Positions 2,106 to 36,229 of a DNA stretch of 64,000 nucleotides are shown here, piece after piece. The stretch covers positions 15,546 through 79,545 of the forward strand of contig JAJDCH010000002.1 of NCBI GenBank assembly GCA_029260905.1, given 5' to 3'. The notes under the pieces are model-generated. The model saw only the letters and a program-made list of their open reading frames with translations, searched no databases and was not told the origin of the DNA. Origin of the DNA: Candidatus Levyibacteriota bacterium (GTDB lineage Bacteria > Patescibacteriota > Microgenomatia > Levybacterales > UBA12049). Positions within the stretch are counted from its first letter, which is position 1, and each line of letters opens with the position of its first letter. Made by a program: the position numbers and the translations under genes.

Positions 2106-2146
2106 GCTTATTGTATGGCATTTAGTTTATGGTTAGTAATCATGCA

Positions 2147-2175
2147 TTGACAGAATAAGGATGAAAATTTAGAAT
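2147..2175 (+). promoter_or_regulatory. Sigma70-type promoter TTGACA-N17-TAGAAT upstream of grpE
   Basis: TTGACA at 2147-2152 and TAGAAT at 2170-2175, with a 17-nt spacer, ending 7 nt before the grpE ATG. Confidence 0.5.
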
Positions 2176-2181
2176 AAAAAA

Positions 2182-2652: not shown

Positions 2653-2717
2653 ATACAAATTTCAAAAGTTTTAGGAATTAGAGATTGGAATTTAGAATTT
2701 GTCCTGAAAGGAGATTT

Positions 2718-4631: not shown

Positions 4632-4666
4632 CTTTTAGCTTATGGCTTTTAGCTTTCAGGAATTTA

Positions 4667-4687
4667 GAGCGCAGAAGCGCTTTTTTA
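4667..4687 (+). terminator. Rho-independent terminator after dnaK (AGCGC-AGAA-GCGCT plus TTTTTT). A TATAAT at 4689-4694 may give dnaJ its own promoter.
   Basis: 5-bp GC stem and tetraloop, followed by a T6 run. Confidence 0.45.
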
Positions 4688-4706
4688 GTATAATAAAACT
4701 GTTATT

Positions 4707-5635: not shown

Positions 5636-6013
5636 ATGGCTCGTTTCGTTCTTTCTATATTTTTTTTGTTTGTTTTTATTTTTTCACCAGTTCAGGTATT
5701 TGCAGCAGGGTCAGGAGCGGATTGTGATTATTCAAAGGAGATAAATACTGATTTTGGTTGTCTTCCCAATGATCCGATTGGATTTGTGCAGGAATTTTAT
5801 GGAATAGGACTTAGCTTTATTGCAGCGCTTTCTCTTTTGGCGTTAATAATTGGAGGCTATAATGTGATGACATCCAAGGGAGATCCACAAAAAGCAAATA
5901 TCGGCAAATCATGGATATTTTATGCAATTGGAGGTTTGGTTCTTGCAATTTTTGGATATATATTTATAAGACTTATAATCGTTGATATTTTGAAGGTTCC
6001 AGGATTCTCATAG
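5636..6013 (+). CDS. VirB2/TrbC-like type IV secretion pilin-like protein (signal peptide plus two hydrophobic helices)
   Basis: 125 aa. Signal peptide, then helix-loop-helix with the loop GGYNVMTSKGDPQKANIGKS. It is a paralog of the C-terminal module of ORF 475..1278. Confidence 0.5.
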   Translation: MARFVLSIFFLFVFIFSPVQVFAAGSGADCDYSKEINTDFGCLPNDPIGFVQEFYGIGLSFIAALSLLALIIGGYNVMTSKGDPQKANIGKSWIFYAIGGLVLAIFGYIFIRLIIVDILKVPGFS

Positions 6014-12459: not shown

Positions 12460-14868
12460 ATGTTTTTTTACGCACGAATTTATCATTTTTACAGGCGAGC
12501 TTTATTAAGAGCCATACGCCTTTTTGTTTTTGCTGTTTTGCTTCTTATTATTTGGCCAAGTGTAGAGGCAGGAGGCTTGCCGAAAATTCCACTTTTCTTG
12601 TTTAATCTTTTTGTTATTTGGGAGATATTTTTTCATTTTAAGATTGGGCGTGTGATGCCTAGTTTAACAATTGAAAAGAATCAAAAAAAAGATCCTTATT
12701 TATCTTTTACACTCCAGGCAATTCTTCCATTTGTAGAGGAAGTAAAGACAGGAAATATTATAAGAAAAATTGTTAAGTACCCGCAAATTAAAGCCATAAT
12801 GCAAAAAGCAGACATAGAAGACAAAGACTTGAATTTTCCAGATGTGCCAGTTGATCTTTTGGCGCAATCCGCTTTTGAAACAGCACGTACGTTCAGGGCA
12901 AAATATGTGACATCTATTGATCTTTTTGCAGCATACATTTTTCTTATAGAGAAAGACACCGAGCTTCTTTTTGCCAAACAATTAAAGATAGATGATCTAA
13001 ATAATATTGTACGTTGGGCAAAGATAGAGTATCCAGATGAAGAAGAGCCCAAGAAAATAAGGACAGGGTCGTTGGGTGAGGGAATAGGAGAAGTATTAAC
13101 AACTGGATGGACTTATGAAACCAAAAAATATACAGTATCATTTTCATCTATTGCTCTTGGCAATAAACCTTTGATACTTGGGAGAGAGGCTGAATTTCGA
13201 CAATTAATTGAGACACTTATAAAAATAGAAAATAATAATGTGCTGCTGGTTGGAAATATAGGTGCGGGAAAGGAGAATTTGGTGCGGGCATTTTCTTATT
13301 ATTCTTTTACGGGTGAGCTTGGAGGGCTTCTCAATTACAAAAAAGTACTTCAACTTCTTACTGGTGCATTGACAGCTGGCGCATCACAAAGAGGAGATCT
13401 TGAAGTACGACTCCAAGAAATAATTGCTGAGATATCACATGCTGAGAATGTGCTTATTTATATACCTGATATTGAAAATATACTTGGTGGCGCGTCCTAC
13501 AACCTTGATTTATCAGGGGCACTGCTTCCTTATCTCAAGACAGGCAATCTGCCGGTTGTGGCAACTATGACAACTGGTGCTTACAAAACCTACATGGAGA
13601 AAAATCCGATTAAGGAGGCTTTTACTGTTATAAGTCTTTCAGATCCAGGCCCTGATGTTGCAACACAAATGGTACTTAGTGAGGCAAAAAAGATTGAGAA
13701 AAAATACAATGCCATCATTACATATGGTGCTGTTAAATCTTCTGTTGAGTTAGCCGGGAGATTTCTTCAGGATCAGGTACTTCCGGGTAGTGCTGTATCA
13801 CTTCTTGAGACAGTTGCAAATAAAGTTGCGCTTGATAAAAACGTTGTTTATTTTGAGCATACCAAGAAAAAAGCAGTTCTCAAGGATCATGTGGTTAGTG
13901 AGGTGGAGACTGAGGCGCATGTGGCAATCGGCACACCAAGCGATCAGGAGATAGAGCTACTTTTACATCTTGAGGAGAGGCTTCATGCGCGGGTTATCCA
14001 TCAGGATGAGGCCATCACTGCCATATCTGAGGCGATGAGAAGAGTCAGATCGGGAATGAGTACTAGCGAGAGGCCTGTCTCATTTTTGTTTCTTGGCCCA
14101 ACTGGTGTGGGCAAGACTGAGACAGCCAAGGCTCTTGCTGATTTTTATTTTGGTGGTGTCAAAAATATGATCAGGCTTGATATGAGTGAGTACTCAGATG
14201 ATGCGGGAGTAAGGCGTCTTCTTGGAGCGCTTCCAGGTGAGGGACAGGAAAGAGGAGAGCTGACTGATAAGATTCATGATAATCCAGCAAGCCTTGTTCT
14301 TCTTGATGAGTTTGAAAAAGCAAATCCCAAGATTCATAATTTATTTCTCCAGGTTTTGGATGATGGACGATTAACTGATAATAAAGGTGTGACTGTAAGT
14401 TTCCGTAACGCCATAATCATCGCCACATCCAATGCAGGATCTGAATTTATTCGTGAAGAAGTGGGAAAAGGTGTGGCAGTTGATAAAAGTTTTCAAAGAA
14501 ATCTGCTCGAGCATCTTCAGACTAATAGGCTTTTTAAGCCTGAACTTCTTAATCGATTTGATGATGTAGTTACCTTTAAACCACTTGCCAATGAAGACGT
14601 AATTCAAGTTGTAAAATTAATGCTTGGCAACTTGATTAAAACAATGGCTGAACAAGATATAGTCCTCGCCTTTGATGATGCTGTTATTGAGAAGATTAGC
14701 AAAGAAGGTTTTGACGCGCAGTTTGGGGCTAGGCCACTGAAGCGTTATATTCAGGATAATCTTGAGGACATAATTGCCCAGAAAAAACTTACAAAAGAAC
14801 TGGATAGAGGCAAGAGAGCTTCTTTCTCAATTGATGGAACAGGCGCGCTGACTGTAACCATTTCGTAA
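12460..14868 (+). CDS. Membrane-anchored Clp-like AAA+ protein. D1 is degenerate; D2 is intact but lacks the pore-loop tyrosine.
   Basis: N-terminal TM helices. D1 Walker A is GNIGAGKE and D1 Walker B is IPDIEN (degenerate). D2 has FLGPTGVGKTE, LVLLDEFEKA and GARPLKR intact. GALPGEGQ replaces the GYVG pore loop. Confidence 0.7.
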   Translation: MFFYARIYHFYRRALLRAIRLFVFAVLLLIIWPSVEAGGLPKIPLFLFNLFVIWEIFFHFKIGRVMPSLTIEKNQKKDPYLSFTLQAILPFVEEVKTGNIIRKIVKYPQIKAIMQKADIEDKDLNFPDVPVDLLAQSAFETARTFRAKYVTSIDLFAAYIFLIEKDTELLFAKQLKIDDLNNIVRWAKIEYPDEEEPKKIRTGSLGEGIGEVLTTGWTYETKKYTVSFSSIALGNKPLILGREAEFRQLIETLIKIENNNVLLVGNIGAGKENLVRAFSYYSFTGELGGLLNYKKVLQLLTGALTAGASQRGDLEVRLQEIIAEISHAENVLIYIPDIENILGGASYNLDLSGALLPYLKTGNLPVVATMTTGAYKTYMEKNPIKEAFTVISLSDPGPDVATQMVLSEAKKIEKKYNAIITYGAVKSSVELAGRFLQDQVLPGSAVSLLETVANKVALDKNVVYFEHTKKKAVLKDHVVSEVETEAHVAIGTPSDQEIELLLHLEERLHARVIHQDEAITAISEAMRRVRSGMSTSERPVSFLFLGPTGVGKTETAKALADFYFGGVKNMIRLDMSEYSDDAGVRRLLGALPGEGQERGELTDKIHDNPASLVLLDEFEKANPKIHNLFLQVLDDGRLTDNKGVTVSFRNAIIIATSNAGSEFIREEVGKGVAVDKSFQRNLLEHLQTNRLFKPELLNRFDDVVTFKPLANEDVIQVVKLMLGNLIKTMAEQDIVLAFDDAVIEKISKEGFDAQFGARPLKRYIQDNLEDIIAQKKLTKELDRGKRASFSIDGTGALTVTIS

Positions 14869-18473: not shown

Positions 18474-19568
18474 ATGGACAACAACATTATTCAGCAAATT
18501 AAAGAAATTGTTACAGGTGCAGGTAGCATCGGAATCACGGTTGGAAAAAATCCGACTGTGGACGACATGGCTGCTGCGCTTGGTCTTTATATAGCGCTTC
18601 AAAATGCCAATAAAAAAGTATTGGTTGCATCACCTACCGACCCTATAGTCGAGTTTTCTTCACTTGTCGGAGTCAACAAGATCACAAAGACCTTAAGCGG
18701 TACTGGTGGCGGATCTGGTGATTTGACTGTTTCTTTTCCATATGTTGAAGGAGAAATTGAAAAAGTTTCATATACGACAGAGGAGGGATATTTAAATATA
18801 ATCGTTAAGGCATCACAACAAGGACTTTCATTCAGTGAGCAGGATGTGAGATTTCAAAGAGGTGGAGGAGAAAAGCTTGATGCTGTATTTGTGATCGGTG
18901 CTGCCTATCTGTCGGAGGTAGAAAGCGTTTTTGATACTCAGGATCTTGATATTAAAATTATTAATGTTGACAAAAGAGCTACAAATGAGGGATATGGTGA
19001 TATCGTTGATGTCATCCTACAGCTTTCATCAGTAAGCGAAGAGGTCGCAAGACTTGTTCTTTCAATGGGTATTCAGATGGATCAGGATGCAGCACAAAAT
19101 TTCATGACTGGAATTTCAGATGCGACCAAGAATTTTCAGAGTCCGCAGACATCATCTCTTGCTTTTGAGGTGGCAGGAAATCTGATGAAAAAAGGAGCAG
19201 TTAGAGCTCGTGAGACTATTGAGGGTACAGATCTTCAAAGAGCCAGACAAGACCTCTCAGATTTGACAAAAAAACAAGTCGGAGTAATGCAGGACAGTCC
19301 TGTTCAGGAGCCATCAGTTACAACACAGCCTCAAGTAAGACCACAGCCTTTGCAGAGTTCTCAACCTCAGGCAAGACTTCAGCAACAGGCAGCACCAACT
19401 GGTCAGGATTTGCCAAGAACCGCTCCTGTCAGACAGCCTCAAACACGACAACCACAACCAGCAAGAACTCAGCCAACGAAAGATCAGGGATTTGCAAATG
19501 ACGATCAAGATGCGCCAGATGACTGGCTGACTCCAAAAGTCTACAAAGGCTCAACTGATGTAAACTAA
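18474..19568 (+). CDS. Possible DHH-family (NrnA-like) homolog with no DHH catalytic motif. It has a Q/P-rich C-terminal tail.
   Basis: Lies in the position after infB. Weak N-terminal resemblance to NrnA (GKNPTVDDMAAALGL). No DHH or GGGH motifs were seen. Confidence 0.3.
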   Translation: MDNNIIQQIKEIVTGAGSIGITVGKNPTVDDMAAALGLYIALQNANKKVLVASPTDPIVEFSSLVGVNKITKTLSGTGGGSGDLTVSFPYVEGEIEKVSYTTEEGYLNIIVKASQQGLSFSEQDVRFQRGGGEKLDAVFVIGAAYLSEVESVFDTQDLDIKIINVDKRATNEGYGDIVDVILQLSSVSEEVARLVLSMGIQMDQDAAQNFMTGISDATKNFQSPQTSSLAFEVAGNLMKKGAVRARETIEGTDLQRARQDLSDLTKKQVGVMQDSPVQEPSVTTQPQVRPQPLQSSQPQARLQQQAAPTGQDLPRTAPVRQPQTRQPQPARTQPTKDQGFANDDQDAPDDWLTPKVYKGSTDVN

Positions 19569-19570: not shown

Positions 19571-20143
19571 ATGACAATAAAAGAAGCTGAAAATTTAAAA
19601 CAATTTAGCACCGAAGGATATATTGCTGATTCTCAACAAAGAATCAGTTATCTGACAGTACTCTTGGGAAACAATGGTGTTGATACGCAAGAAAGTGAGA
19701 GAAAAAAAGGAATCATTGCAAACACTACAAGAAAGCCTGGTCTGGTCGGAGAATTTTTTACAAACTTTGGTTATTCTCCTGCAACAGGGCTTGGTCAGTT
19801 GGTTCAGTTATTGGATTTTAAAAGAGAAGTAGCAAGCGAAGCGGGTAGAAGAGCTGGAAATTTAAATTTCTTGGAAGATAAAATTGCAAGGCAAGGATTA
19901 GACGAGGTTTTTGAGTTGCAAAATGATATAGGAAAAATTATTGAGGAAATTGGTAAAGAGGTGTTTGGAGAAGAAAAAGCAGGATCAGAGATCAGGGGAT
20001 TGGAATCTATCTTTTTTGCGCATCTTGATACTGATACTTATAATTCTTCTCAAAAGATTGAAGGGAGAAAAAAAGATAGAGACAGCCAGCTTAATAATCT
20101 TGTTGGTAGAATAAGGGATGAATATCCTCTTACAAGTAGATAA
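19571..20143 (+). CDS. Hypothetical protein (190 aa)
   Basis: ORF between infB and rpsO. No recognisable motifs. Confidence 0.5.
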   Translation: MTIKEAENLKQFSTEGYIADSQQRISYLTVLLGNNGVDTQESERKKGIIANTTRKPGLVGEFFTNFGYSPATGLGQLVQLLDFKREVASEAGRRAGNLNFLEDKIARQGLDEVFELQNDIGKIIEEIGKEVFGEEKAGSEIRGLESIFFAHLDTDTYNSSQKIEGRKKDRDSQLNNLVGRIRDEYPLTSR

Positions 20144-20570: not shown

Positions 20571-22946
20571 ATGAATAAAACTTCAGTAAGTATAGATTTT
20601 GCAGGTAAGACAATGCTCCTTGAAACAGGCGAATTGGCTCCTCAAGCAACAGCATCAATTTTGGCTCGCCTTGGCGATACGGTTGTGCTAGCAACAGTTG
20701 TTGTGGGCAATTTGAGGCCTGAAATTGATTATTTCCCGCTTAGCGTTGATTATGTTGAGAGACTTTATGCAGGTGGTAAAATCAAAGGAAGCCGTTGGGT
20801 AAAAAGAGAAGGTAGGCCATCAGATGAGGCAATTCTCGCAGGACGTGTGATTGATCGTTCGATCAGACCGCTTTTTCCAAAAGAGTTCAAGCAAGAAGTT
20901 CAGGTAATTGTAACCGTTCTTTCAGTTGATGCTGAAAATGAGCCAGATATATTGGCTCTAAATGCTGTTTCAGCTGCTCTTGCTATTTCAAAAGCTCCAT
21001 GGAATGGACCTATTGCAGGAGTCAGAATGGGTTATGTTGAAGAAAATGGAGATCAGGCAGCGCTTCTAGCAAATCCTACAACCAGCCAAGCAGAGCATTC
21101 AGTTTTGGATATTATAGTTTCACAAAGCAAGGAAAAGACTGTGATGATTGAGGCTGGTGCAATGCAAGTAACAGAAGATGTTGTTTATCAAGCAGTAGAA
21201 GCAGCACACATCGAAACAAGCAAGGTGCTTGATGGAATTGCAGAACTTGTTAAAAAAGTCGGACAGGAAAAACTCCCAGTCCCACAGGATCCACTTCTTG
21301 CAGAGGCTGTAGCGATATTTGAAAAATCATATACAGATGAGGTCAAAAAGCTAATTGAGATAAGAGTAGGTAAAGAAGGCGGAGGAAATGAGGCAGGAGA
21401 ATTAATTGAAAAGATTTATGAAGAGCTGAAGATGAAAGATCCAGAAACAGAGATGGATAAAAAGATTCTTTCAAAAGCTCTTGAAAAGGTGATGTTTAAG
21501 ATCATAAGAAGTGAAACCGTCAGTAAGAAAAAAAGAGCTGATGGTAGAGCGCTTGATGAAATTCGTGAGATAACTGGTGTGACAGGAATTCTTCCAAGAA
21601 CACATGGTTCAGCACTTTTTAACCGTGGTATAACCCAGGCTTTAAGCGTCGCAACTCTTGGTTCCCCTCGTCTTGAACAGTTGATCGAATCAGCTGAGGG
21701 CGAAGAGACAAAGAGATATATTCATCATTACTCAGGCATGCCATATTCTTTTGGTCAGGCTGGGCGTATGGGATTCACATCACGCCGTGAAATTGGACAT
21801 GGTGCTCTAGCTGAGCGTGCATTGATGGCTGTTATACCATCCCAAGAAGTATTTCCATATACCATTAGGGTTGTTTCTGAGGTTCTATCTCAAAATGGTT
21901 CCTCATCAATGGCTAGTACTTGTGGTTCAACACTTGCTCTTATGGATGCAGGTGTGCCAATCACAGCACCCGTTGCTGGTATTTCAGTTGGCATGATGTC
22001 AGATGATAAAGATTATGTTTTGATGACAGATATCATTGGCCTTGAGGATTTTTCAGGTGATATGGATTTCAAGGTAGCTGGAACTTCAAAAGGTATTACA
22101 GCAATACAGCTTGACGTGAAGATTCCAGGTCTTACTCTTAAGCAAGTTAAAGAAATTCTAGCTCAAGCAAAAGGCGCAAGGGCTCTGATTCTTGAAAAGA
22201 TGGAGAAGATTATTCCATCTTCAAAAAAAGCTGTTTCAGAATATGCTCCAAAGATTGAACAAATCAAGATACCTGTGGATAAGATTGGGGAGATTATTGG
22301 ACCGTCAGGTAAGAATATCAAGGCTATTATCGCTCAGACAGGAGCTGAGGTAAATGTAGATGATGATGGAACTGTAAGTATTTCAGCTGTTTCTCAGGAG
22401 TCAGTTCAGGCAGCTGTTGACTGGATTGGTGGAATGACAAGAGAGGTTGCAGTTGGGGAAGAATTTGAGGGAGAAGTGAAAAGAATATTGCCATTTGGAG
22501 CATTTGTTGAGTATCTTCCGGGGCGAGAGGGAATGGTTCATGTAAGTAAGATGAAAAGAGGCTTTGTCAAAGATCCATCAGAAGTTGTTGCAATTGGAGA
22601 TAAGGTTAGGATTAAGATTGAAGAGCGTGACCAGCAGGGAAGAATTAATTTAACAATGCTTCTTGATGGAGACGAACCATCAAGTGGTGGAGATAATGAA
22701 GATAAACAGCCTGATTCAAATCAGCCAGAGCCTGGAAATGAAAGATCTTTTAATTCTCGTTTGCCACGAGATTTTAACAGACGTGATTCTTCCCCCCAAA
22801 GAGCAAATAATTTTGACAGACCCGATAGATCAGAACACCCTCTTTCCAAGCAATTAAGACGAGAAAGTACAGAATCTCGCGGAGGATCAAGAGGCAGTAA
22901 ATTTGGTCCACGTAAATTTGGCCCCAAAAAACCCTTCAGTAGATAA
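20571..22946 (+). CDS. pnp: Polyribonucleotide nucleotidyltransferase (PNPase) with an R/G/S-rich C-terminal tail
   Basis: Two RNase PH domains, a KH domain and an S1 domain. The 90-aa C-terminal tail is low-complexity. Confidence 0.95.
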   Translation: MNKTSVSIDFAGKTMLLETGELAPQATASILARLGDTVVLATVVVGNLRPEIDYFPLSVDYVERLYAGGKIKGSRWVKREGRPSDEAILAGRVIDRSIRPLFPKEFKQEVQVIVTVLSVDAENEPDILALNAVSAALAISKAPWNGPIAGVRMGYVEENGDQAALLANPTTSQAEHSVLDIIVSQSKEKTVMIEAGAMQVTEDVVYQAVEAAHIETSKVLDGIAELVKKVGQEKLPVPQDPLLAEAVAIFEKSYTDEVKKLIEIRVGKEGGGNEAGELIEKIYEELKMKDPETEMDKKILSKALEKVMFKIIRSETVSKKKRADGRALDEIREITGVTGILPRTHGSALFNRGITQALSVATLGSPRLEQLIESAEGEETKRYIHHYSGMPYSFGQAGRMGFTSRREIGHGALAERALMAVIPSQEVFPYTIRVVSEVLSQNGSSSMASTCGSTLALMDAGVPITAPVAGISVGMMSDDKDYVLMTDIIGLEDFSGDMDFKVAGTSKGITAIQLDVKIPGLTLKQVKEILAQAKGARALILEKMEKIIPSSKKAVSEYAPKIEQIKIPVDKIGEIIGPSGKNIKAIIAQTGAEVNVDDDGTVSISAVSQESVQAAVDWIGGMTREVAVGEEFEGEVKRILPFGAFVEYLPGREGMVHVSKMKRGFVKDPSEVVAIGDKVRIKIEERDQQGRINLTMLLDGDEPSSGGDNEDKQPDSNQPEPGNERSFNSRLPRDFNRRDSSPQRANNFDRPDRSEHPLSKQLRRESTESRGGSRGSKFGPRKFGPKKPFSR

Positions 22947-23134
22947 GTAAGAACATGCAGATATTTTAAATAGACTGCATCTCTCGCGCAGGAGACCGAC
23001 TATTCGATTTTAGTGAATCTTTAGCGACTAAAGTTTTGAATTGAAAGTTACTGTAGGATTATTCAACATTCAGGCTCAAGAATATAAATAGATTTTGTTT
23101 AAATTGGAGTAAATTCTCGAATCTATTTATGTCC

Positions 23135-23150
23135 AGTATACCTGTATACT
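23135..23150. promoter_or_regulatory. 16-bp perfect palindrome AGTATAC-CT-GTATACT in the upstream region of the Lon-like gene (candidate operator)
   Basis: Read directly from the sequence. It lies about 120 bp upstream of the ATG at 23272, inside a 325-bp intergenic region. Confidence 0.3.
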
Positions 23151-23271
23151 AGTCATAATATCAATAGTTGGCTTTTTGTACTAGTTTTAGTTTTGATTTA
23201 TTGTTTAGTTTTTAAATATTAGCTTTTAAATAATTCTTTCCAATAGGTCTTTAATGTTGTAAGATAGATCT

Positions 23272-24606
23272 ATGGATCCAACTGCCCAAAATCCACAAAA
23301 TCCTGCAGGCGCGACCACAGCTCAAACACCGCAACAGCCAACACCTGAGGAGCAGGCTGCTGCAGGGAGGGGAGATGCAGCACCTATTCAAAATAGCACT
23401 GTTCAGGCGCAAAACTCATCTGAGGCTGAGGCTTTGAGTAAGGTTGCATCTGTTAATTCTGCACAAATGATAAATAACGATAAGACTCAATTTGAGGCCA
23501 ATCAGGCGCAAAATAGCACGAACACACCAGTAACTGATCATGGAAGATCTTCTGATCAGATCCGCGTGCTTGGTGAAAAAATTGAAAAAGCAGCAATTCC
23601 TGAGGATTTCAAAAAAGAACTGCTTGATCGTATTTCACGGCTTGCAATGATAAGATCAAGCGCCGGTTTTCTTAGCTCAACCTACATAATGGAGTATGAA
23701 TCAACCAATAGATTTGTTAATTGGGTTCTTAGTCTTCCGTGGGGCAAGAAAAGTGAGGACGTGCTTGATCTCAACCGCGCCAAGGAGTGGATGGATAAAA
23801 ATCACTATGGACTTGAGCCGCTTAAACAAAGAGTGCTGGAGTATATAGCATCACTAATGTTAAATATCAAGAATTATGGTCAGACAGAAAATGTAATAAA
23901 GGCGCCAATTCTTTGCATAGTAGGTCTTGCCGGAACTGGTAAAACGACTTTTGCAAGATCTCTTGCTGGAGCCTTAGGTAGAGAGTTTGAGCGTATTCCA
24001 TTTGGAGGTATGGCTGATTCGCGCGTATTGAGAGGTCAGTCGCGTTATTTTCCTGATGCAGAACCTGGACAAGTTATGAAGAGACTTGCAAAGGCGGGTA
24101 CTAATAATCCTGTTATTCTTCTTGATGAGTTGGATCGTGTAACTGATACAGCAAGAGCTGATATCATGGGTGTTCTTATTGAGATACTTGATCCGGAACA
24201 AAACGCCAGATTTACTGATCATTACATAGACTATCCATTTAGCTTGCAAAACGTTTTATTTGTCGCAACAGCAAATAATGTCAGCAGTGTTTCAACTGCC
24301 GTTCTTGACCGTTTAGAAATAATACAAATGCCATCATACAATGATGAAGAAAAAACAGTTATCGGACGGGATTTTGTGTTGCCAAAGACAATGCAAACAA
24401 CTGGTCTTAAGCCTGAGCAGATGACTATTGATCCTGCTGTTTGGGAAGGGTTGGTGCGTCCTCTTGGTTATGATCCTGGTGTCCGTGGACTTGAGCGGGT
24501 CATAACTGGAATGTGTAGAAAAGCTGCGAAAATAATCATATCTGGTCAGGCGCAATCAGTTGTCATAAATAACGAAAATGTGAAACAGTTTTTGCCTGAG
24601 TGGTAA
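23272..24606 (+). CDS. Lon-family AAA+ ATPase module with no LAN N-terminal domain and no S16 protease domain. The N-terminus is Q/N/A-rich low complexity.
   Basis: Strong colinear similarity to the Lon coiled-coil and AAA+ region: LPWGKKSEDVLDLNRAKEWMDKNHYGLEPLKQRVLEYIA, GLAGTGKTT, VILLDELDRV, EILDPEQNARFTDHY, VLDRLEII and DPGVRGLERVITGMCRKAA. The ORF ends where the Lon protease domain would begin. Confidence 0.75.
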   Translation: MDPTAQNPQNPAGATTAQTPQQPTPEEQAAAGRGDAAPIQNSTVQAQNSSEAEALSKVASVNSAQMINNDKTQFEANQAQNSTNTPVTDHGRSSDQIRVLGEKIEKAAIPEDFKKELLDRISRLAMIRSSAGFLSSTYIMEYESTNRFVNWVLSLPWGKKSEDVLDLNRAKEWMDKNHYGLEPLKQRVLEYIASLMLNIKNYGQTENVIKAPILCIVGLAGTGKTTFARSLAGALGREFERIPFGGMADSRVLRGQSRYFPDAEPGQVMKRLAKAGTNNPVILLDELDRVTDTARADIMGVLIEILDPEQNARFTDHYIDYPFSLQNVLFVATANNVSSVSTAVLDRLEIIQMPSYNDEEKTVIGRDFVLPKTMQTTGLKPEQMTIDPAVWEGLVRPLGYDPGVRGLERVITGMCRKAAKIIISGQAQSVVINNENVKQFLPEW

Positions 24607-24703
24607 TTTAGCCATAGCTTAGAGCATATAGCTTGTGGCATATAGAAATCCATAAGCCATACACTCTTTGCTCTAAGTAATAAATAAGCTATACTTATAT
24701 CCA

Positions 24704-26410
24704 ATGGATGAACAAAACACACAACCCTCTCCAATATCCCCTCCTGACTCAGTTTCTTTTATAGCCCTTGGTGGATTGGAAGATGTGACTCGCAATTTGT
24801 ATCTTTATGAATACAAAGATCAGATACTTATAGTTGATTGTGGTATCGGATTTCCGGATGAGACGATGCTTGGGGTTGATCTTTTTCTCCCAGATATTAC
24901 TTATCTTCAAGAGCTTATAAAAAATAAAAATAAAAAAATTGTCGGTATGCTTCTGACGCATGGACATGAAGACCATATCGGCGGAGTGCCATTTATCTTG
25001 CCACAGTTAAATCAGGACTTTCCTATTTATGCATCACCTTTTACAGCGCGTCTTACCAATGAAAAACTTAAGGAATTTCATCTCCCAGAGATTGTGAAAA
25101 CAGTTAAATTTGAGGATGGAGATGTACGGATTGGGGATTTCACAGCCACGTTTATACGTGTTACTCATTCGGTTCCTGATAGCGCTAATTTTTTTATTAG
25201 AACTCCAGTCGGGAATTTTTTTCACGGAAGTGATTTTAAATTTGATCTCACTCCACATGATGGGAAAAGGACTGAATTTAATAAAATAATGAAAGCCTCA
25301 ACTGAAGGGGTTTTGTGTCTGATGACAGACTGTCTTGGGACAGAAAGAGAAGGACACAGCCCATCAGAGGAAGGGCTTGAGAAGAGCTTTGAAAGAGAGA
25401 TGAAGGACTGTACTGGCAAGTTCATTATCACTACTTATTCATCAAATGTAGCGCGTCTCAATCAGGCGATAGAAGCAGCAGAAAAAACAGGAAGAAAAGT
25501 TTGTTTTGTTGGAAGATCAGTTATCAAGGTTGCCCAAATTGCAGAAGAGATGGGTTATCTGAAAATAAAAAAAGGAACAGAGGTTGGGATAAATGATTTG
25601 AAAAATTATAAACCATCACAACTTCTTCTTTTTGTTGCCGGGTCTCAGGGACAGGATAATTCGTCAATGACAAGAATTGCTAACAATGAACACAAGGAGA
25701 TAAAACTTGGTAGAGAAGATCTCGTTGTTTTTTCATCAGATATTATCCCTGGTAATGAGCTGGCAGTAAGCGCTCTCTCAAACACTATTTCAAAAAGAGG
25801 AACAGCAGTTCTTGGTCTTTATAATCGTGGTAATTTTCATGTCTCTGGTCATGGATCACAAGGCGATCATAGACTTATGATGTCTTTGATTAAGCCCAAA
25901 TACATTCTGCCGATAAGTGGCACTTATAAACACATGGTTTTTTATAAAGACTTAGCCAAGAAAATGGGTTATGGCAACAAAGACACTATTCTTATAGAAA
26001 ACGGACAAATTATGCATTTTGGAAAAAATGGGTATCAATATGGAAAAAAGATCGAGACAAAAAATGTTTTTGTTGATCAGGTCTCAGGTGAGGAAGTGGA
26101 GCATTATGTGGTGCGTGATAGGGAAAAATTGGCAAAAGAAGGCGTGGTCATCGTCATGGCTGAGGTCAGGGGAGCGGACGGTCAGCTGGTTGACAGGCCT
26201 GAGATAATTGCTAGGGGCTCATCAGTTGGCGGCTTGAAGGATTTTTCTGGTGATTTGATGAAGGAGATTGTGCGTGATCTTTCTAATAAAAAGGAAAAGG
26301 TAACGAATTGGGCGCATATAAGACATATTATAGGAGATACAGCGCAGAAACAAATTTATCGTAAATTCCGCTCTCGCCCCCTCGTTTTACCTGTTATTAT
26401 AGAGGTCTGA
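24704..26410 (+). CDS. rnj: Ribonuclease J (metallo-beta-lactamase with a beta-CASP domain)
   Basis: HGHEDHIGG motif, beta-CASP region and an RNase J C-terminal domain. Confidence 0.9.
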   Translation: MDEQNTQPSPISPPDSVSFIALGGLEDVTRNLYLYEYKDQILIVDCGIGFPDETMLGVDLFLPDITYLQELIKNKNKKIVGMLLTHGHEDHIGGVPFILPQLNQDFPIYASPFTARLTNEKLKEFHLPEIVKTVKFEDGDVRIGDFTATFIRVTHSVPDSANFFIRTPVGNFFHGSDFKFDLTPHDGKRTEFNKIMKASTEGVLCLMTDCLGTEREGHSPSEEGLEKSFEREMKDCTGKFIITTYSSNVARLNQAIEAAEKTGRKVCFVGRSVIKVAQIAEEMGYLKIKKGTEVGINDLKNYKPSQLLLFVAGSQGQDNSSMTRIANNEHKEIKLGREDLVVFSSDIIPGNELAVSALSNTISKRGTAVLGLYNRGNFHVSGHGSQGDHRLMMSLIKPKYILPISGTYKHMVFYKDLAKKMGYGNKDTILIENGQIMHFGKNGYQYGKKIETKNVFVDQVSGEEVEHYVVRDREKLAKEGVVIVMAEVRGADGQLVDRPEIIARGSSVGGLKDFSGDLMKEIVRDLSNKKEKVTNWAHIRHIIGDTAQKQIYRKFRSRPLVLPVIIEV

Positions 26411-26446: not shown

Positions 26447-28912
26447 ATGACTGAAAGACGAGGAGCACCACGTACTCCGGAACAAGTATTACCCAAAGAA
26501 AATCTTTTGGGTTCTAATCATGCGCTTCAGGCAAGGCTTCTAAATCCGCTTAATCTTGAGGCGGATATGAACGGTACGGATGTGCTCGTAATAGCTGGTG
26601 ATGTCAAAGATCAGGGACTCGGGTTTGCTCTTGGAGAAGAGGGAGCAAGGGTTTATGAAGATGTTTCACTACAACAAAGAGGAAATGATACCCTCAAATT
26701 TAACCAATGGAGAGATAATTTCAACATTAGAATTGCTCAAATCAAAAAAAGAGAGCCTGAAAAGGCTGAATTTTTAGAGCAGATTGGTGTGACAGATGCT
26801 GATAGCTTTTATGATGAGTATCTTTTTGATAGAGAAAATGGAAAGCTCAAATCTGATTTGGTTGGATTTGTTTCAAAAGTAGCTGAGGCTGATGCAGGTT
26901 CTGTTGGAGCAAATGAAGATTTGATAAAAGAGCTTGGAAAGGCTTTTGGTGAGGGGTCAAATGAAGTGATAGTTAATCTGGTACAGGCTGTTAAAAATAT
27001 CCAAATGGGTGCAACAACTTTTGCTCAGTCAGCTGAGATTGATTTGGAAGTTGCAAAAACACATGATCTTATTCAAAGAATTGTTTCAGATAGAAATGAA
27101 TGGAATGCAGGCGGTCAAGATGCTGCAGAGCAGGATCTTCAGGCGTATTTGGCGACTTTGGAAGAAGATGAAGTAGACCAAGGCGGTGATGAGGGTGATG
27201 ATGATTCAGGTCCTGATGATGCTGGGAAAAGACACCAGGCTACGAAAGACAATTCTCAGTCTGATAAGGAAGAAGATGGTGGAGAAGGTGATGAAAGTGG
27301 AGATGGTAAAAATTTACCTGACAAGTTGGTTTGGAGAAGTGGGGGGATAAATGTTCCACCAGATCCGGATAGTAATGGCGAGCCTCCTGATGGTCCTAGT
27401 GGCGGCGTAGAGCCTGATTCGTCTCCTTCAGGAAGCGGTGGAGGATCAGGAGCGGTTGCTGAAGGAGATGGTAGCGGATCTGGAGAAGACAAGATTCCCG
27501 CAGGCACGTTTGGGCCTGGGGATGATGAGTTGGAGTTTGAGTATGATGAGCCAGAACGAGTCAGTCCAGATGTTTCAGATTGGCAGACCATGATTATGCG
27601 AGTCAAGTCAGGATCACTTCCTGATGAGACAAAAGCTAAATTGATAGCGCAAATTAGAGGAAAAATAGCTGAAGAAAGAGCAAATGCCGGTGGAAAACTG
27701 ACAAGCGGCGGAGAGGAGGATGGAGGAAATCCTGAGCCTGTTCAGATAGATAGACCTGCAAGTCCTGCAGTTGAAAGTTTTGTGAATGGAGATGGTTTGG
27801 ACCTAGATGCTGTTTTAGGGGAGATGCGCAGTTCTGCTGCCGAAACTGCAGGTCCAGTAACAGAACCTGATCGCGGGAGCGAAAGTAGTGAGACTGGGAA
27901 AGAGGTTCTTTCTTATGATCCTTTGATACTTAGGGATATCAGAGACAGATTAAGATATTTTAGTGAGGTTTTTCCTCACAAAGAATTTCTTCTTGGCAGG
28001 GATATAGAGTTGGAAGCAGACGTGCTGGATGAGGTGTTAAAGCTTGTAGATCAGGCAGGCAAAATTATTGAATCAAGAAAAGGAGAGGTCGCTGGTTTTG
28101 GGGAGTTTTTTGAGGCATACACAGAACAGGTGGAGCTGGATAAGGATCTGGAATCAGGATTTTGGATCTCAGATGATGGAAATACGAGATATGCATCTGC
28201 AGAGATATACGAACTTAATCAGATGGTACGTGCCAAGGCATATGTTGAGGCAATTGCAAAAGGCTATAAGTCAATACTTGAAGGTCAAGAAAATGGGTCG
28301 TTTGATAGGGAGTTGACAGAAATTTTTTCTAGTTATCTTCCAGCACTTGATGATTTCATGAGGAGTCAGATTGATGGCACTCCTGAGTATGAATCTCAAC
28401 TCGATCTGTCTTATCAAGGGTTTGTTGAAAGGGTTAAAGATCAGATTGAGGGTGTGGACAATCCAGGAGGAAATGTAAAAATTTTGGTAGAGATGCCTGC
28501 GCTTTCTGAATATATAAAAGGCAGATTGCGAAATGGTGAAAGTGTTCAGGATCTTGAGATTATTAGTTTGGGAAAAGACGGTCAAAAGCCATATATAAGA
28601 TTCGTGGTTGTGACAGCTGATGGTAGTGAGGTAAATTACAATATAGTTAACAATAAAGAGAATACAGGGATGGAAATTTATTTTGATCATGAGCTGAATG
28701 GCTCGCTAGACACAGATAATCCCGCAATAACAGAGATTGATGATGATTTAAATGATTATCCAGACGAAAATTATCGAGATTTCGGTGAGGGTTTGGTGCA
28801 TGATCTTGATTTGGCGATTGAAAATCCCAAAATGAGACCAGTTGGAATGATAATAGATACTTATGGTGAGTTGATAATTAAATTTGCAGATAGCGAATTT
28901 ATAGCGATATAA
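26447..28912 (+). CDS. Large acidic hypothetical protein (821 aa) with a G/D/E/S-rich, disordered-looking central region
   Basis: Long clean ORF with no TM helices or recognisable catalytic motifs. The region is more GC-rich than the surrounding sequence. Confidence 0.6.
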   Translation: MTERRGAPRTPEQVLPKENLLGSNHALQARLLNPLNLEADMNGTDVLVIAGDVKDQGLGFALGEEGARVYEDVSLQQRGNDTLKFNQWRDNFNIRIAQIKKREPEKAEFLEQIGVTDADSFYDEYLFDRENGKLKSDLVGFVSKVAEADAGSVGANEDLIKELGKAFGEGSNEVIVNLVQAVKNIQMGATTFAQSAEIDLEVAKTHDLIQRIVSDRNEWNAGGQDAAEQDLQAYLATLEEDEVDQGGDEGDDDSGPDDAGKRHQATKDNSQSDKEEDGGEGDESGDGKNLPDKLVWRSGGINVPPDPDSNGEPPDGPSGGVEPDSSPSGSGGGSGAVAEGDGSGSGEDKIPAGTFGPGDDELEFEYDEPERVSPDVSDWQTMIMRVKSGSLPDETKAKLIAQIRGKIAEERANAGGKLTSGGEEDGGNPEPVQIDRPASPAVESFVNGDGLDLDAVLGEMRSSAAETAGPVTEPDRGSESSETGKEVLSYDPLILRDIRDRLRYFSEVFPHKEFLLGRDIELEADVLDEVLKLVDQAGKIIESRKGEVAGFGEFFEAYTEQVELDKDLESGFWISDDGNTRYASAEIYELNQMVRAKAYVEAIAKGYKSILEGQENGSFDRELTEIFSSYLPALDDFMRSQIDGTPEYESQLDLSYQGFVERVKDQIEGVDNPGGNVKILVEMPALSEYIKGRLRNGESVQDLEIISLGKDGQKPYIRFVVVTADGSEVNYNIVNNKENTGMEIYFDHELNGSLDTDNPAITEIDDDLNDYPDENYRDFGEGLVHDLDLAIENPKMRPVGMIIDTYGELIIKFADSEFIAI

Positions 28913-28920: not shown

Positions 28921-29358
28921 TTGATTGGTTTTAGGTCTGGAAATAGTGTAAGCGCTAACACCCTATTAAGTGTCTTGCCGAGGATTTCAGATGCAGCTGA
29001 GAGATTAATAACAGAAAAAATTTTAGACACAGAAGGGATTGCAAAGGCATATGAGAGATTGACAGAGTTGTTTACAAAAAATCCGGAAAATATGGATGGG
29101 ATGTTGGTGCGTTCAGAGCAAGTGGCTAGAGAAGAAGATCCCGAATCTTCAAATCTTTCTGAGGGGCCTCTTGTTTTCACACCAGAAGTTTATGATTTGA
29201 TAATGGCAAATTTCGCATTGAAACAAGTTGTAAATGTGAGCACAGGTGTTAAATCAGCTTCTTCTGGGAGCGAGCATTTAATAATCAACAATACAAACCG
29301 GTTCATTTATTCTCTGGAAAATGTACGTGACTATGTTAGAAAGCATTTGATGTCATAA
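28921..29358 (+). CDS. Hypothetical protein (145 aa)
   Basis: ORF directly following the 821-aa gene on the same strand. Confidence 0.45.
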   Translation: MIGFRSGNSVSANTLLSVLPRISDAAERLITEKILDTEGIAKAYERLTELFTKNPENMDGMLVRSEQVAREEDPESSNLSEGPLVFTPEVYDLIMANFALKQVVNVSTGVKSASSGSEHLIINNTNRFIYSLENVRDYVRKHLMS

Positions 29359-35500: not shown

Positions 35501-36229
35501 TTATATCTTCTCAGCTTTTGATTTTATTATCAACCTTTTCCAGGTTGTACCAGGCGGTGTACATGTAACAATTGTTAGATAAGAGCCGTCATATTGTTGA
35601 GTTAGATACGAGGTGTCTTCGGCATCAGTAACTGAGATATCAAATATTTTGTAATTATAAATTTTTCCATCTGATGAGACCTGAATATCATCGCCTGGTT
35701 TTACGCTATGAATATTGGCAAAGATCGTTTTATAGTTTTTTGGATCAAAAAGCTGTGGAAGGGTTGAGTGACCAAAAATGACAGATGTGCCACGATTTGG
35801 GGGTATAGCAGTTCCTGGAAAATTGACAAGATTGGAGGAAAGGTCAAGATTAACGGTTGAAGCTATTACATCTTTTATGCCGATTGATTCAATAGACAGA
35901 TAAAAAAACGATACATTACTTTCCTCCTCTTTTTTATGTGACGGTGGTAACCAGTTAGGATTGCCATTAAAATTAACACTTGAGATAGATTCTGCTGTGG
36001 TTTCAAAAAAGCTTTTTATAGAGTTTTTTGAAAGAATAAATTTTTGTGGGATAGGTGATGTATAAGTGCTGCTAGCAAAAGCAGGTTTTACGTAAAGTTC
36101 CCATGAAAGAATTGGAAACATCACATAAAGTCCGAAAAATAGACCAAGAAGTGAAATACCAAGTCCGCCAAGCCTTATTGTTTTTTTGATTTTTTTGGTG
36201 TCTGCTTTTTTGTAAACTTTTTTAATCAT
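35501..36229 (-). CDS. Sortase (transpeptidase)
   Basis: N-terminal TM anchor, His in IFGHSTL, the TLxTC motif LTIVTCTP with the catalytic Cys, and a conserved Arg (WKRL). Confidence 0.8.
   Translation of the reverse strand: MIKKVYKKADTKKIKKTIRLGGLGISLLGLFFGLYVMFPILSWELYVKPAFASSTYTSPIPQKFILSKNSIKSFFETTAESISSVNFNGNPNWLPPSHKKEEESNVSFFYLSIESIGIKDVIASTVNLDLSSNLVNFPGTAIPPNRGTSVIFGHSTLPQLFDPKNYKTIFANIHSVKPGDDIQVSSDGKIYNYKIFDISVTDAEDTSYLTQQYDGSYLTIVTCTPPGTTWKRLIIKSKAEKI

What the first reader, a model, noticed from the sequence alone, without database searches (positions are those of the whole stretch)
23272..24606. Lon-like AAA+ ATPase with no protease domain
- The protein aligns to LonA from the helical region before the AAA+ module through the end of the alpha-subdomain (Walker A GLAGTGKTT, Walker B VILLDELDRV, sensor/arginine-finger region VLDRLEII, and GVRGLERVITGMCRKAAK).
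- It terminates exactly where the S16 Ser-Lys protease domain should begin.
- It lacks the LAN substrate-binding N-domain, which is replaced by about 110 aa of Q/N/A/T-rich low complexity.
- The 97-bp downstream intergenic region has no protease-domain remnant, so this is not a simple frameshifted lon.
- A stand-alone Lon ATPase module could act as an unfoldase or chaperone, or pair with a protease encoded elsewhere.
Basis: partly seen in the sequence, partly recalled or inferred. Interest (0 to 1): 0.65.

Follow-up and report, generated by a model that had tools for sequence, protein, structure and literature searches.

The report
Conserved Lon-derived ATPase lacking its protease
This gene encodes the ATP-driven motor of the Lon protease with no protease attached; the same shortened form is kept in hundreds of tiny CPR bacteria (Levybacteria, Dojkabacteria), so it is a real, selected protein that probably unfolds or remodels proteins instead of degrading them.

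Summary
ORF 23272-24606 (+) encodes 444 aa. Residues ~91-444 match LonA from the helical bundle before the AAA+ module to the end of the lid (E. coli Lon ~235-580). There is no S16 protease domain and no LAN N-domain. Residues 1-90 are A/Q/T/N/P-rich and poorly conserved.

It is not a truncation artefact. More than 120 protein clusters and 236 species genomes carry the same 350-470 aa architecture, always stopping at the lid. No Lon protease domain was found in six-frame scans of the window plus 84 related loci (1.42 Mb).

The carriers are Levybacteria. A deeper sister branch occurs in Dojkabacteria, where one closed genome has two paralogs. In an unbootstrapped tree, all protease-less forms make one clade inside LonA.

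All ATPase catalytic motifs are intact. Pore-loop 1 is rebuilt (RRT-Y-[VI]-G-A-[ML] becomes SR-[YF][FY]-P-D-A-E).

The gene appears to have its own promoter directly before the ATG. Its place between pnp and rnj looks like inherited gene order.

Best reading: a stand-alone hexameric Lon-derived unfoldase or remodeller. A protease partner encoded elsewhere in the genome could not be excluded. Verdict: new variant of a known kind, moderate interest.

The parts
23237..23265 (+). Putative promoter directly before the start codon: -35-like TTTCCA (23237-23242), 17-nt spacer ending in TG, -10-like TAAGAT (23260-23265), then 6 nt to the ATG. This implies a leaderless or near-leaderless mRNA.
   Evidence: In most of the ~80 related loci, a TGTAATATA-type box ends about 6 nt before the ATG, with TTGCA-like sequence ~17 nt upstream. 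The window copy is weaker and falls below the threshold of the consensus scan. Sequence read. Function is inferred.
23272..24606 (+). Complete gene for the protease-less LonA-derived AAA+ ATPase (444 aa plus stop).
23272..23541 (+). N-terminal low-complexity, probably disordered region (aa 1-90). It carries a conserved N-terminal MDP[TAS][AQ] motif and a small GD.P island.
   Evidence: Composition and hydrophobicity. Mean conservation 0.38 against 0.74-0.87 for the core. pLDDT is low, block means 33-68 over residues 1-90. Alignment A1. MD start in 110 of 121 relatives; synonymous variation in the first codons.
23542..23886 (+). Helical region before the AAA+ core (aa 91-205). It corresponds to LonA residues ~235/249-350 (three-helix-bundle region).
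   Evidence: Aligned ranges. Helices 90-106, 111-131, 136-154, 167-177 and 182-202 in the AF2 model.
23887..24327 (+). AAA+ alpha/beta subdomain (aa 206-352).
   Evidence: Pfam AAA 214-352. Foldseek matches Lon AAA+ modules, e.g. 6n2i with target-normalised TM 0.86.
23923..23949 (+). Walker A, GLAGTGKTT (aa 218-226).
   Evidence: Invariant in A1; motif table.
24001..24069 (+). Pre-pore and pore-loop 1 segment, FGGMADSRVLRGQSRYFPDAEPG (aa 244-266). F260 aligns with the Lon pore-loop Tyr. The clade signature is P-D-A-E.
   Evidence: The longest near-invariant stretch in the family. Comparison with canonical Lon. Role of the Tyr in LonA: PMC8503904.
24112..24135 (+). Walker B, VILLDELD (aa 281-288; D285, E286).
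24265..24279 (+). Sensor-1 region, ATANN (aa 332-336).
24304..24318 (+). Arginine-finger region, LDRLE (aa 345-349; R347).
   Evidence: Invariant. Conserved across the whole protease-less clade.
24328..24561 (+). Lon-type lid (alpha subdomain, aa 353-430), including sensor-2 R405 in GVRGLER (nt 24478-24498).
   Evidence: Pfam Lon_lid 376-428.
24562..24603 (+). C-terminal tail ending ...NVKQFLPEW. It corresponds to the Lon lid-to-protease linker (NLxxYLG). The terminal [LM]P[EQ]W is common in the family.
   Evidence: Alignment to E. coli and B. subtilis Lon. C-terminal four residues tabulated: LPEW 33, MPEW 23, and related forms, of 121.

Best explanation
The gene encodes a stand-alone AAA+ ATPase that descends from LonA. 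It has lost both the N-terminal LAN substrate-binding domain and the C-terminal S16 protease domain. It keeps the pre-AAA helical bundle, the nucleotide-binding subdomain and the Lon lid.

Shown by the data:
- The architecture is conserved and under strong purifying selection in Levybacteria. Related forms occur in Dojkabacteria.
- All residues needed for ATP binding and hydrolysis are intact: Walker A Lys, Walker B Asp-Glu, sensor-1 Asn, the Arg finger (which acts in trans in LonA rings), and sensor-2 Arg.
- The central pore loop keeps an aromatic residue at the Lon Tyr position. It now sits in a new, acidic, family-invariant context, [YF][FY]-P-D-A-E.

Inferred:
- The protein assembles into a ring, as Lon does. 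A conserved Arg finger fits ring-dependent hydrolysis.
- It uses ATP to grip and pull on protein substrates through the pore, then releases them unfolded or remodelled instead of feeding them to a protease chamber.
- So it would act as a Lon-derived unfoldase or chaperone, like ClpB/Hsp104 or ClpX without ClpP.
- The variable, disordered N-terminal tail with its conserved MDP.. tip may recruit substrates or partners, or regulate the ring.
- The gene is probably transcribed from its own promoter as a leaderless mRNA. Its position between pnp and rnj reflects a conserved chromosomal backbone and not an operon.
For: Identity:
- Pfam AAA + Lon_lid only.
- TIGR00763 matched over positions 249-572 only.
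- LonA structures at E~1e-76.
- AF2 model matches LonA AAA+ modules: 6n2i, target-normalised TM 0.86, rmsd 3.2.

Conservation of the architecture:
- The best 120 clusters are 321-539 aa with no Lon_C.
- 236 species genomes carry a relative. In the 80 loci fetched, the reading frame closes at or a few codons after the end of the match, apart from two cut by a contig end.
- 120 Dojkabacteria-type relatives have the same architecture.

No protease domain nearby:
- My protease-only HMM hit 19 of 22 control Lons. It found nothing with E<0.8 in six-frame translations of the window plus 84 loci, 1.42 Mb.
- No LAN domain either.
- Pfam on 42 window ORFs (all but one of the non-overlapping ORFs of at least 120 aa, plus rpsO) shows no ClpP, HslV, FtsH or Lon_C.
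- None lies within +-10 kb of the two Dojkabacteria paralogs.

One origin: the NJ tree puts the protease-less proteins in one clade among LonA AAA modules.

Active ATPase: catalytic motifs are invariant.

Pore loop: aromatic in 11 of 11 family members. The Lon pore-loop Tyr contacts substrate and is required for degradation (PMC8503904).

Own promoter.

Proteostasis hint: divergent members sit head-to-head with groES-groEL.
Against: - Whole genomes could not be scanned, so a protease partner encoded far away is not excluded.
- Neither oligomeric state nor ATPase or unfoldase activity can be tested here.
- From my own knowledge, the protease domain helps hold LonA hexamers together, so a ring without it is an assumption.
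- In most other protease-less clusters (10 of 14), the pore-loop aromatic is replaced by H/R/S/E/N/Q/D. The clade as a whole may therefore not be a classical threading motor, and the acidic PDAE loop has no characterised precedent.
- The hydrophobic pore-loop-2 position (Trp431 in MtaLonA) is Ala in this family.
- The tree has no bootstrap support.
Confidence: 0.6

Rival explanations
1. Two-component (split) Lon. The ATPase ring docks non-covalently onto a separately encoded peptidase, either a stand-alone Lon_C/S16 hexamer or another chambered protease, possibly through the conserved C-terminal [LM]P[EQ]W tail. Proteolysis would then be retained, with the two halves on separate genes.
For: - The protein ends exactly in the linker that normally leads into the protease domain.
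- A C-terminal ...F[LM]P[EQ]W is common in the family, and C-terminal tails are docking elements in other AAA+ protease systems (own knowledge).
- This family keeps an aromatic pore loop.
- Whole genomes were not searched, so a distant partner is possible.
Against: - No Lon_C in the 64-kb window or in 84 loci from about 80 species, nor near the Dojkabacteria paralogs. Split genes usually stay adjacent in at least some lineages.
- No peptidase partner of any kind in the window.
- The pore-loop aromatic is lost in most sister clusters, which fits poorly with processive delivery to a protease.
- The C-terminal tail is not an HbYX-type motif and is not conserved in the deeper branches.
Confidence: 0.2
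2. RNA-decay accessory ATPase. The protein works with its neighbours PNPase and RNase J, for example by remodelling a degradosome-like complex or its protein cofactors.
For: The order pnp - Lon-ATPase - rnj is kept, same strand, in almost all Levybacteria loci long enough to show it.
Against: - The whole 15-kb block nusA-infB-DHH-rpsO-pnp-X-rnj-ftsK is conserved, so this is backbone synteny and not a specific pairing.
- The gene and rnj each seem to have their own promoter directly before the ATG.
- Insertions of up to 9 kb separate it from rnj in L001.
- Synteny is absent in divergent Levybacteria members (L080, L083, next to groESL) and in Dojkabacteria.
- No RNA-binding domain is present, and the pore loop is acidic.
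Confidence: 0.08
3. Non-threading ATP-dependent switch or scaffold. The ring or oligomer binds partners and changes conformation with ATP but does not translocate polypeptides. The reworked pore loop would then be a binding site and not a pulling paddle.
For: - 10 of 14 other protease-less clusters have no aromatic at the pore-loop position while keeping every ATPase motif.
- The hydrophobic pore-loop-2 residue is replaced by Ala.
- Long disordered tails are typical of hub proteins.
Against: - In this family the aromatic pair is invariant, and the pore-loop segment is the most conserved stretch of the whole protein. That is what one expects of a working pore loop.
- No partner-binding domain is detectable.
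Confidence: 0.1
4. Artefact or decaying gene: a lon gene truncated by assembly error, frameshift or recent pseudogenisation.
For: None beyond the unusual length.
Against: - The same start, stop and length occur in over 120 clusters and 236 species genomes, including closed chromosomes.
- The core is 74-87% conserved, with invariant catalytic residues.
- The next gene starts 97 bp downstream and is RNase J.
Confidence: 0.01

Closest known systems
LonA protease (endopeptidase La; E. coli Lon, B. subtilis LonA, human LONP1; PDB 6u5z, 3m6a, 6n2i, 7p09)
   Same: - The pre-AAA helical bundle, AAA+ alpha/beta subdomain and Lon-specific lid are all present, at 31-36% identity in the structural alignments, with E~1e-76 in the sequence search.
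- All ATPase motifs are the same.
- The predicted fold superposes on the Lon AAA+ module.
   Different: - No S16 Ser-Lys protease domain.
- No LAN domain and no long-helix N-domain.
- Pore-loop 1 is RRT-Y-[VI]-G-A-[ML]-PG in Lon and SR-[YF][FY]-P-D-A-E-PG here.
- The pore-loop-2 hydrophobic residue is Ala here.
- It scores at half the TIGR00763 cutoff.
LonBA / short-N Lon (B. subtilis LonBA; PMC9569914)
   Same: Lacks the extended LonA N-terminal region, and its ATPase is related to A-type Lon.
   Different: LonBA keeps a functional protease domain. The paper states that all Lons contain both ATPase and protease domains. The protein here has none.
LonC (Meiothermus taiwanensis LonC; PMC3391209, PMC13069640)
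   Same: A natural Lon relative in which one of the two Lon activities has been given up.
   Different: It is the mirror image. LonC keeps the protease and has lost ATPase activity (abstracts). Here the ATPase is kept and the protease is gone.
Stand-alone Hsp100/Clp unfoldases without a peptidase (ClpB/Hsp104; ClpX acting without ClpP) - works-like comparison, from established knowledge
   Same: A ring AAA+ motor with aromatic pore loops that remodels or unfolds proteins and releases them without degrading them.
   Different: - Different AAA+ families and domain organisation.
- ClpB has two AAA rings and a middle domain that couples to DnaK. Nothing of that kind is present here.
- Two Clp/Hsp100 ATPases are encoded separately in the same window.
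Proteolytically inactive FtsH homologs (FtsHi of the chloroplast Ycf2-FtsHi import motor) - own knowledge
   Same: A precedent for an AAA+ protease lineage re-used purely as an ATP-driven motor.
   Different: FtsHi proteins keep a degenerate protease domain and are membrane-bound. Here the protease domain is deleted outright and the protein is predicted to be soluble.

Membership tests
Lon protease family (MEROPS S16; LonA subfamily) | C-terminal S16 proteolytic domain with a Ser-Lys dyad fused to the ATPase | tested here: not met
   No Pfam Lon_C at E<=1. My protease-only HMM gives no hit in the ORF, the window or 84 loci, while hitting 19 of 22 control Lons. The protein ends at Lon position ~580.
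Lon protease family (MEROPS S16; LonA subfamily) | N-terminal LAN (LON_substr_bdg) substrate-binding domain | tested here: not met
   No PF02190 hit. No hit with my N-domain HMM in any frame. Residues 1-90 are low complexity with low pLDDT.
Lon protease family (MEROPS S16; LonA subfamily) | Whole-protein score above the curated cutoff of the endopeptidase La model | tested here: not met
   TIGR00763: 309.9 bits against a cutoff of 608.05. NF008053: 245.1 against 891.
Lon protease family (MEROPS S16; LonA subfamily) | LonA-type AAA+ module: pre-AAA helical bundle, alpha/beta subdomain and Lon-specific lid | tested here: met
   Pfam AAA + Lon_lid. Aligned to LonA 235/249-580. Foldseek top hits are all LonA or LONP1. 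It groups within LonA AAA modules in the tree.
Lon protease family (MEROPS S16; LonA subfamily) | Pore-loop 1 Tyr followed by a hydrophobic residue (RRTY[VI]G) | tested here: inconclusive
   An aromatic (F/Y) is kept at the Tyr position in 11 of 11 family members. The following residue is Pro, and the loop becomes acidic (PDAE).
Catalytically competent classical AAA+ ATPase | Walker A Lys, Walker B Asp-Glu, sensor-1 Asn, Arg finger, sensor-2 Arg | tested here: met
   K224, D285/E286, N335, R347 and R405 are invariant in A1 and kept across all protease-less clusters.
Catalytically competent classical AAA+ ATPase | Hexameric ring assembly and measurable ATP hydrolysis | not testable with these tools
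   Only a monomer model was made. This needs biochemistry or a multimer prediction.
Two-component AAA+ protease unfoldase (ClpX/ClpA/HslU/PAN type) | A partner self-compartmentalising peptidase encoded in the genome | tested here: inconclusive
   None in the 64-kb window. No Lon_C in 84 flanking loci. None near the Dojkabacteria paralogs. Whole genomes could not be searched.
Two-component AAA+ protease unfoldase (ClpX/ClpA/HslU/PAN type) | A recognised docking element (IGF/IGL loop, HbYX or HslU-type C-terminal tail) | tested here: inconclusive
   The C-terminus is ...F[LM]P[EQ]W in most members, which is not HbYX. No insertion relative to Lon that could be an IGF loop is visible in the alignments. 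No docking test is possible.
Lon-like proteins of anti-phage defence systems (e.g. BrxL) | Match to a defence-system model and a defence-island context | tested here: not met
   PADLOC gives only weak generic AAA hits, the best being TRIP13 at E=1.9e-5. The context is housekeeping.

The most novel reading that the evidence does not exclude
Levybacteria and Dojkabacteria have given up Lon proteolysis altogether and kept only a re-engineered Lon motor. That motor has a new acidic pore loop (PDAE), disordered recruiting tails and, in some genomes, two paralogs that might form mixed rings. It would be a dedicated ATP-dependent chaperone or remodeller for a specific class of substrates, for example basic proteins. 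This would be a natural separation of Lon's long-debated chaperone function from its protease function. Alternatively, the motor docks through its [LM]PEW tail onto an unrelated peptidase, giving a previously unseen two-component Lon system.
Probability: 0.2. Interest if true: 0.75.

Novelty: new variant of a known kind. Interest (0 to 1): 0.55.

Why it matters
Lon is defined in textbooks and in the specialist literature as one chain carrying both ATPase and protease (PMC9569914).

This is a monophyletic, strongly conserved, protease-less and LAN-less LonA lineage. It is spread over hundreds of CPR species. Its catalytic motifs are intact and its substrate pore is redesigned. That shows the Lon motor can be kept by selection on its own.

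It offers a natural system for asking three questions:
- What does the Lon ATPase do without proteolysis (chaperone or remodelling activity)?
- How does a Lon ring hold together without the protease ring?
- How do ultra-small symbiotic bacteria organise protein quality control?

It also matters for annotation. JGI calls these proteins 'ATP-dependent Lon protease', which over-predicts proteolytic capacity. NCBI calls them only 'AAA family ATPase'.

Tried and rejected
1. HrcA/CIRCE regulation. The window encodes hrcA, and divergent homologs abut groESL. But no CIRCE-like site (TTAGCACTC-N9-GAGTGCTAA, up to 3 mismatches) exists anywhere in the window, not even near the chaperone genes. The test is uninformative.

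2. A perfect palindrome, AGTATAC-CT-GTATACT, at 23135-23150 upstream of the gene. It is not conserved in any relative, so I dropped it as an operator.

3. Degenerate protease remnants in the 72-aa and 193-aa C-terminal tails of deep-branch members P0159 and P0162. These tails are S/N/Q low complexity and do not match the protease HMM.

This needs a CPR Lon as query. The nearest canonical Lons turned out to be unnamed or from Firmicutes. I abandoned the route and left the third homolog search unused.

5. Literature. Six searches on Lon in CPR or on protease-less Lon and one on Levybacteria found no description of a natural protease-less LonA.

6. Defence-system membership: PADLOC gave only weak generic AAA hits, no match to a Lon-like defence protein.

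7. The consensus promoter and terminator scan of 22800-24800 gave nothing above shuffled expectation. The promoter proposal rests on cross-species conservation instead.
Full report
**1. The observation**

The window contains an ORF at 23272..24606 on the + strand, 444 aa with an ATG start. An in-frame stop lies 9 nt upstream, so the ORF cannot begin earlier.

- Pfam detects AAA (residues 214-352) and the Lon-specific lid, Lon_lid (376-428). It detects neither Lon_C nor the LAN domain (LON_substr_bdg), even at E<=1.
- The NCBIfam endopeptidase La model TIGR00763 matches only profile positions 249-572 of 795. The score is 309.9 bits, half the 608-bit cutoff.
- Against PDB sequences the best match is B. 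subtilis LonA (3m6a, E=1.7e-76, query 94-441). E. coli Lon (6u5z) aligns over its residues 222-579.
- The protein ends three residues after the last aligned position, within the linker that leads into the protease domain in Lon.
- The downstream gap is 97 bp, and the next gene is RNase J.

The non-Lon N-terminus is about 90 residues, not 110. It is rich in A/Q/T/N/P/S, 11% hydrophobic, and modelled with low confidence.

**2. It is a conserved architecture, not an artefact**

A search of 5.8 billion proteins returned 120 listed clusters at 57-100% identity. They are 321-539 aa long, most of them 420-470 aa. All carry AAA plus Lon_lid (one lacks the lid call), and none carries Lon_C. Several lie on contigs of 0.4-1.6 Mb.

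A scan of one genome per species found 236 loci that encode a relative. The 80 best have 49-77% identity. In these loci the stop-to-stop reading frame closes at or a few codons after the end of the match, apart from two loci cut by a contig end.

I built a protease-only HMM from 42 full-length Lons. It recovered 19 of 22 unseen long Lon-like proteins. Run against six-frame translations of the window plus 84 loci (1.42 Mb), it gave no hit better than E=0.84. An N-domain HMM also found nothing.

Pfam annotation of 42 window ORFs (all but one of the non-overlapping ORFs of at least 120 aa, plus rpsO) shows a housekeeping region. It includes hrcA-grpE-dnaK-dnaJ, two Clp/Hsp100 ATPases, nusA-infB, rpsO-pnp, rnj, ftsK, rpoBC, groEL and secA. 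No ClpP, HslV, FtsH or Lon_C is present.

**3. Who carries it**

The informative record titles name Levybacteria/Levyibacteriota, Microgenomates or the Patescibacteria group. Three are closed chromosomes: OY970292.1, OZ246394.1 and CP066685.1. Many MAGs titled 'uncultured Gammaproteobacteria' or other phyla share the same synteny, so they are probably mislabelled.

In the 50%-identity representative library, canonical ~780-aa Lons appear only at 43% identity or less. Before them come about 15 further short clusters made of AAA plus Lon_lid only.

A neighbour-joining tree of the AAA modules puts all of these in one clade with the family, nested among LonA modules. It is midpoint-rooted and has no bootstrap, so it is only indicative. 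The few protease-less sequences scattered among canonical Lons look like fragments.

A search seeded with the deepest branch (P0159) returned 120 more proteins of the same architecture. Where named, they come from Dojkabacteria. One closed Dojkabacteria chromosome, CP129478.1, carries two paralogs about 450 kb apart. So the loss of the protease and LAN domains is old and has been inherited across at least two CPR lineages.

**4. Anatomy and what it implies**

In a 27-sequence alignment, the core (residues 91-444) is 74-87% conserved per region. The N-terminal 6-90 is 38% conserved.

These catalytic residues are invariant: Walker A (G218-T226), Walker B (D285, E286), sensor-1 (N335/N336), the Arg finger (R347) and sensor-2 (R405). 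They are also kept in every other protease-less cluster. In LonA rings the Arg finger acts in trans (own knowledge), so its conservation fits a ring assembly here too; this is inferred.

The AF2 model has a mean pLDDT of 71. Block means over the core (residues 91-444) range from 45 to 91 and are mostly 70 or higher. It superposes on LonA AAA+ modules; for the E. coli Lon AAA+ crystal structure 6n2i the target-normalised TM-score is 0.86 and the rmsd is 3.2 Å.

The longest near-invariant stretch is the pre-pore and pore-loop-1 segment, FGGMADSRVLRGQSR[YF][FY]PDAEPG.

- Canonical Lon has GGVRDEAEIRGHRRTY[VI]GA[ML]PG, with Tyr in 84 of 88 sequences.
- In this family the aligned position is F or Y in 11 of 11. 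The following hydrophobic residue is Pro, and Gly and Met/Leu have become Asp and Glu.
- In MtaLonA the pore-loop-1 Tyr and the pore-loop-2 Trp contact the substrate and are required for degradation (PMC8503904). The pore-loop-2 position is Ala here.
- In 10 of 14 other protease-less clusters, the aromatic is replaced by a polar or charged residue.

I read this as a motor that still grips polypeptides in the Levybacteria family but with changed specificity. The constraint is relaxed or different elsewhere in the clade.

**5. Termini**

- 110 of 121 relatives start with MD and 79 with MDP. The first codons vary synonymously, so selection acts on the peptide.
- The low-complexity spacer is 62-186 aa long within the family. 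It is absent in ~355-aa relatives and reaches ~300 aa in P0123.
- The C-terminus is ...F[LM]P[EQ]W in most members. The Phe corresponds to the Tyr of Lon's YLG linker.
- Deep-branch members instead carry low-complexity C-terminal tails with no trace of a protease.

Other proteins in this window also carry low-complexity tails, for example PNPase and the DHH-like protein. The tail is therefore partly a habit of this genome and not a designed replacement for the LAN domain.

**6. Context and expression**

The order nusA-infB-DHH-rpsO-pnp-[Lon ATPase]-rnj-ftsK, all on one strand, holds in nearly every Levybacteria locus long enough to show it.

Three points argue against a functional pairing with pnp or rnj.
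- The whole block is conserved, not just this trio.
- Insertions of up to 9 kb occur between the ATPase and rnj.
- The arrangement is lost in divergent members, where the gene sits head-to-head with groES-groEL. It is also lost in Dojkabacteria.

In most loci a TGTAATATA-type -10 box ends about 6 nt before the ATG, with a TTGCA-like -35 box ~17 nt upstream. In the window this is TTTCCA-17-TAAGAT-6-ATG. The window's rnj start (24704) has a similar layout (sequence read). I infer that the gene has its own promoter and a leaderless mRNA. This supports the annotated start and argues against an operon. The consensus scan of the window alone did not reach its threshold.

**7. Mechanism**

Most likely (about 0.6): a stand-alone, ring-forming, ATP-hydrolysing Lon-derived unfoldase or remodeller. 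It releases its substrates instead of degrading them. The disordered N-tail would act in recruitment or regulation.

- Shown: identity, architecture, conservation, intact catalytic residues, a conserved aromatic pore loop, and no protease domain in cis or nearby.
- Inferred: ring assembly, threading, and chaperone-like output.

Rivals:
- A split Lon with a distant peptidase partner (0.2). This cannot be excluded without whole-genome scans.
- A non-threading ATP switch (0.1).
- An RNA-decay accessory protein (0.08).
- An artefact (0.01).

**8. Comparison with what is known**

The specialist literature defines all Lons (A, B, C and BA) as single chains that contain both ATPase and protease (PMC9569914). 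LonC is the mirror case: the protease is kept and the ATPase is inactive.

This protein meets the LonA AAA+ criteria but fails the two features that make a Lon a protease. It should therefore not be filed as a Lon protease, although JGI names it so. It is a Lon-type AAA+ ATPase.

Seven literature searches found no description of a natural protease-less LonA: six on Lon in CPR or on protease-less Lon and one on Levybacteria. NCBI labels these proteins only as 'AAA family ATPase'. PADLOC gave only weak generic AAA hits and no match to a Lon-like defence protein.

**9. Verdict**

This is a real, conserved, previously uncharacterised variant of a well-known family. Interest is moderate (0.55). It is surprising relative to the definition of Lon, and it is useful for separating Lon's motor and chaperone role from proteolysis. 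On the other hand, it is a domain-loss variant in reduced genomes, and its function is untested. The decisive missing step is a whole-genome census of peptidase domains in the closed Levybacteria and Dojkabacteria chromosomes.

Noticed in passing
not in the window; proteins P0124, P0126, P0129 and about 25 other clusters: Lon proteases with two or three tandem Lon-type AAA+ modules (AAA + Lon_lid repeated) before a single Lon_C domain, 900-3865 aa long. P0129 also has the LAN domain. They may be double- or triple-ring Lons. Their origin is unknown.
   Followed up: partly
L085 10001-11194 and L086 10001-11521 (CP129478.1, Dojkabacteria, 1.04 Mb): One closed genome carries two diverged protease-less Lon-ATPase paralogs (397 aa and 506 aa). 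Against the query P0159 they score 71% and 45% identity. They lie about 450 kb apart in unrelated contexts. Mixed rings are conceivable.
   Followed up: partly
L083 7881-11083; L080 7513-10685: In the most divergent Levybacteria-type members (~355 aa, no N-terminal tail), the gene sits head-to-head with groES-groEL instead of between pnp and rnj.
   Followed up: partly
window 23237-23271 and 24665-24703; about 80 related loci: A promoter-like -35/-10 pair ends about 6-7 nt before the ATG of the Lon ATPase (conserved across about 80 loci) and, in the window, of rnj. There is no Shine-Dalgarno sequence. This suggests leaderless mRNAs may be common in these genomes.
   Followed up: partly
window 1294-5597, 8556-12059, 12460-14868: A proteostasis cluster, hrcA-grpE-dnaK-dnaJ, is followed by two unannotated ORFs (5636-6013 and 6017-8512, 831 aa, no Pfam hit) and two Clp/Hsp100 ATPases. 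The first (1167 aa) is unusually long. In the second (802 aa), only one AAA module is clearly detected.
   Followed up: no
window, whole: hrcA is present, but no CIRCE-like operator exists anywhere in 64 kb at up to 3 mismatches, including near dnaK and groEL. The HrcA operator of this lineage may differ from the canonical one.
   Followed up: no
window 20571-22946, 18474-19568, 26447-28912: Several proteins carry long low-complexity tails. PNPase has a ~90-aa R/S/G/D-rich C-terminal tail, and the DHH-like protein has a Q/P-rich tail. An 821-aa very acidic ORF with no Pfam hit follows rnj. tblastn recovered that ORF, the 190-aa ORF at 19571-20143 and the 145-aa ORF at 28921-29358 in none of the related loci.
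   Followed up: no
L006, L008, L012, L016, L020 and many CAZ*/CAY* loci: Some contigs have Levybacteria-type gene order and 59-77% identical Lon-ATPase, yet their titles read Lysobacterales, Limnocylindrales, Methylomirabilota, Sulfotelmatobacter or 'uncultured Gammaproteobacteria'. They are probably mis-binned contigs or placeholder taxonomy.
   Followed up: no
window 23135-23150: A perfect palindrome, AGTATAC-CT-GTATACT, lies 122-137 nt upstream of the start codon. It is not conserved in any relative.
   Followed up: yes
window 36232-38550 (-), 35501-36229 (-), 475-1278 (-): A 771-aa protein has a weak Baseplate_J-like match and lies next to a sortase. There is also a T4SS-pilin-like protein. 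These are surface or appendage genes embedded in the housekeeping region.
   Followed up: no
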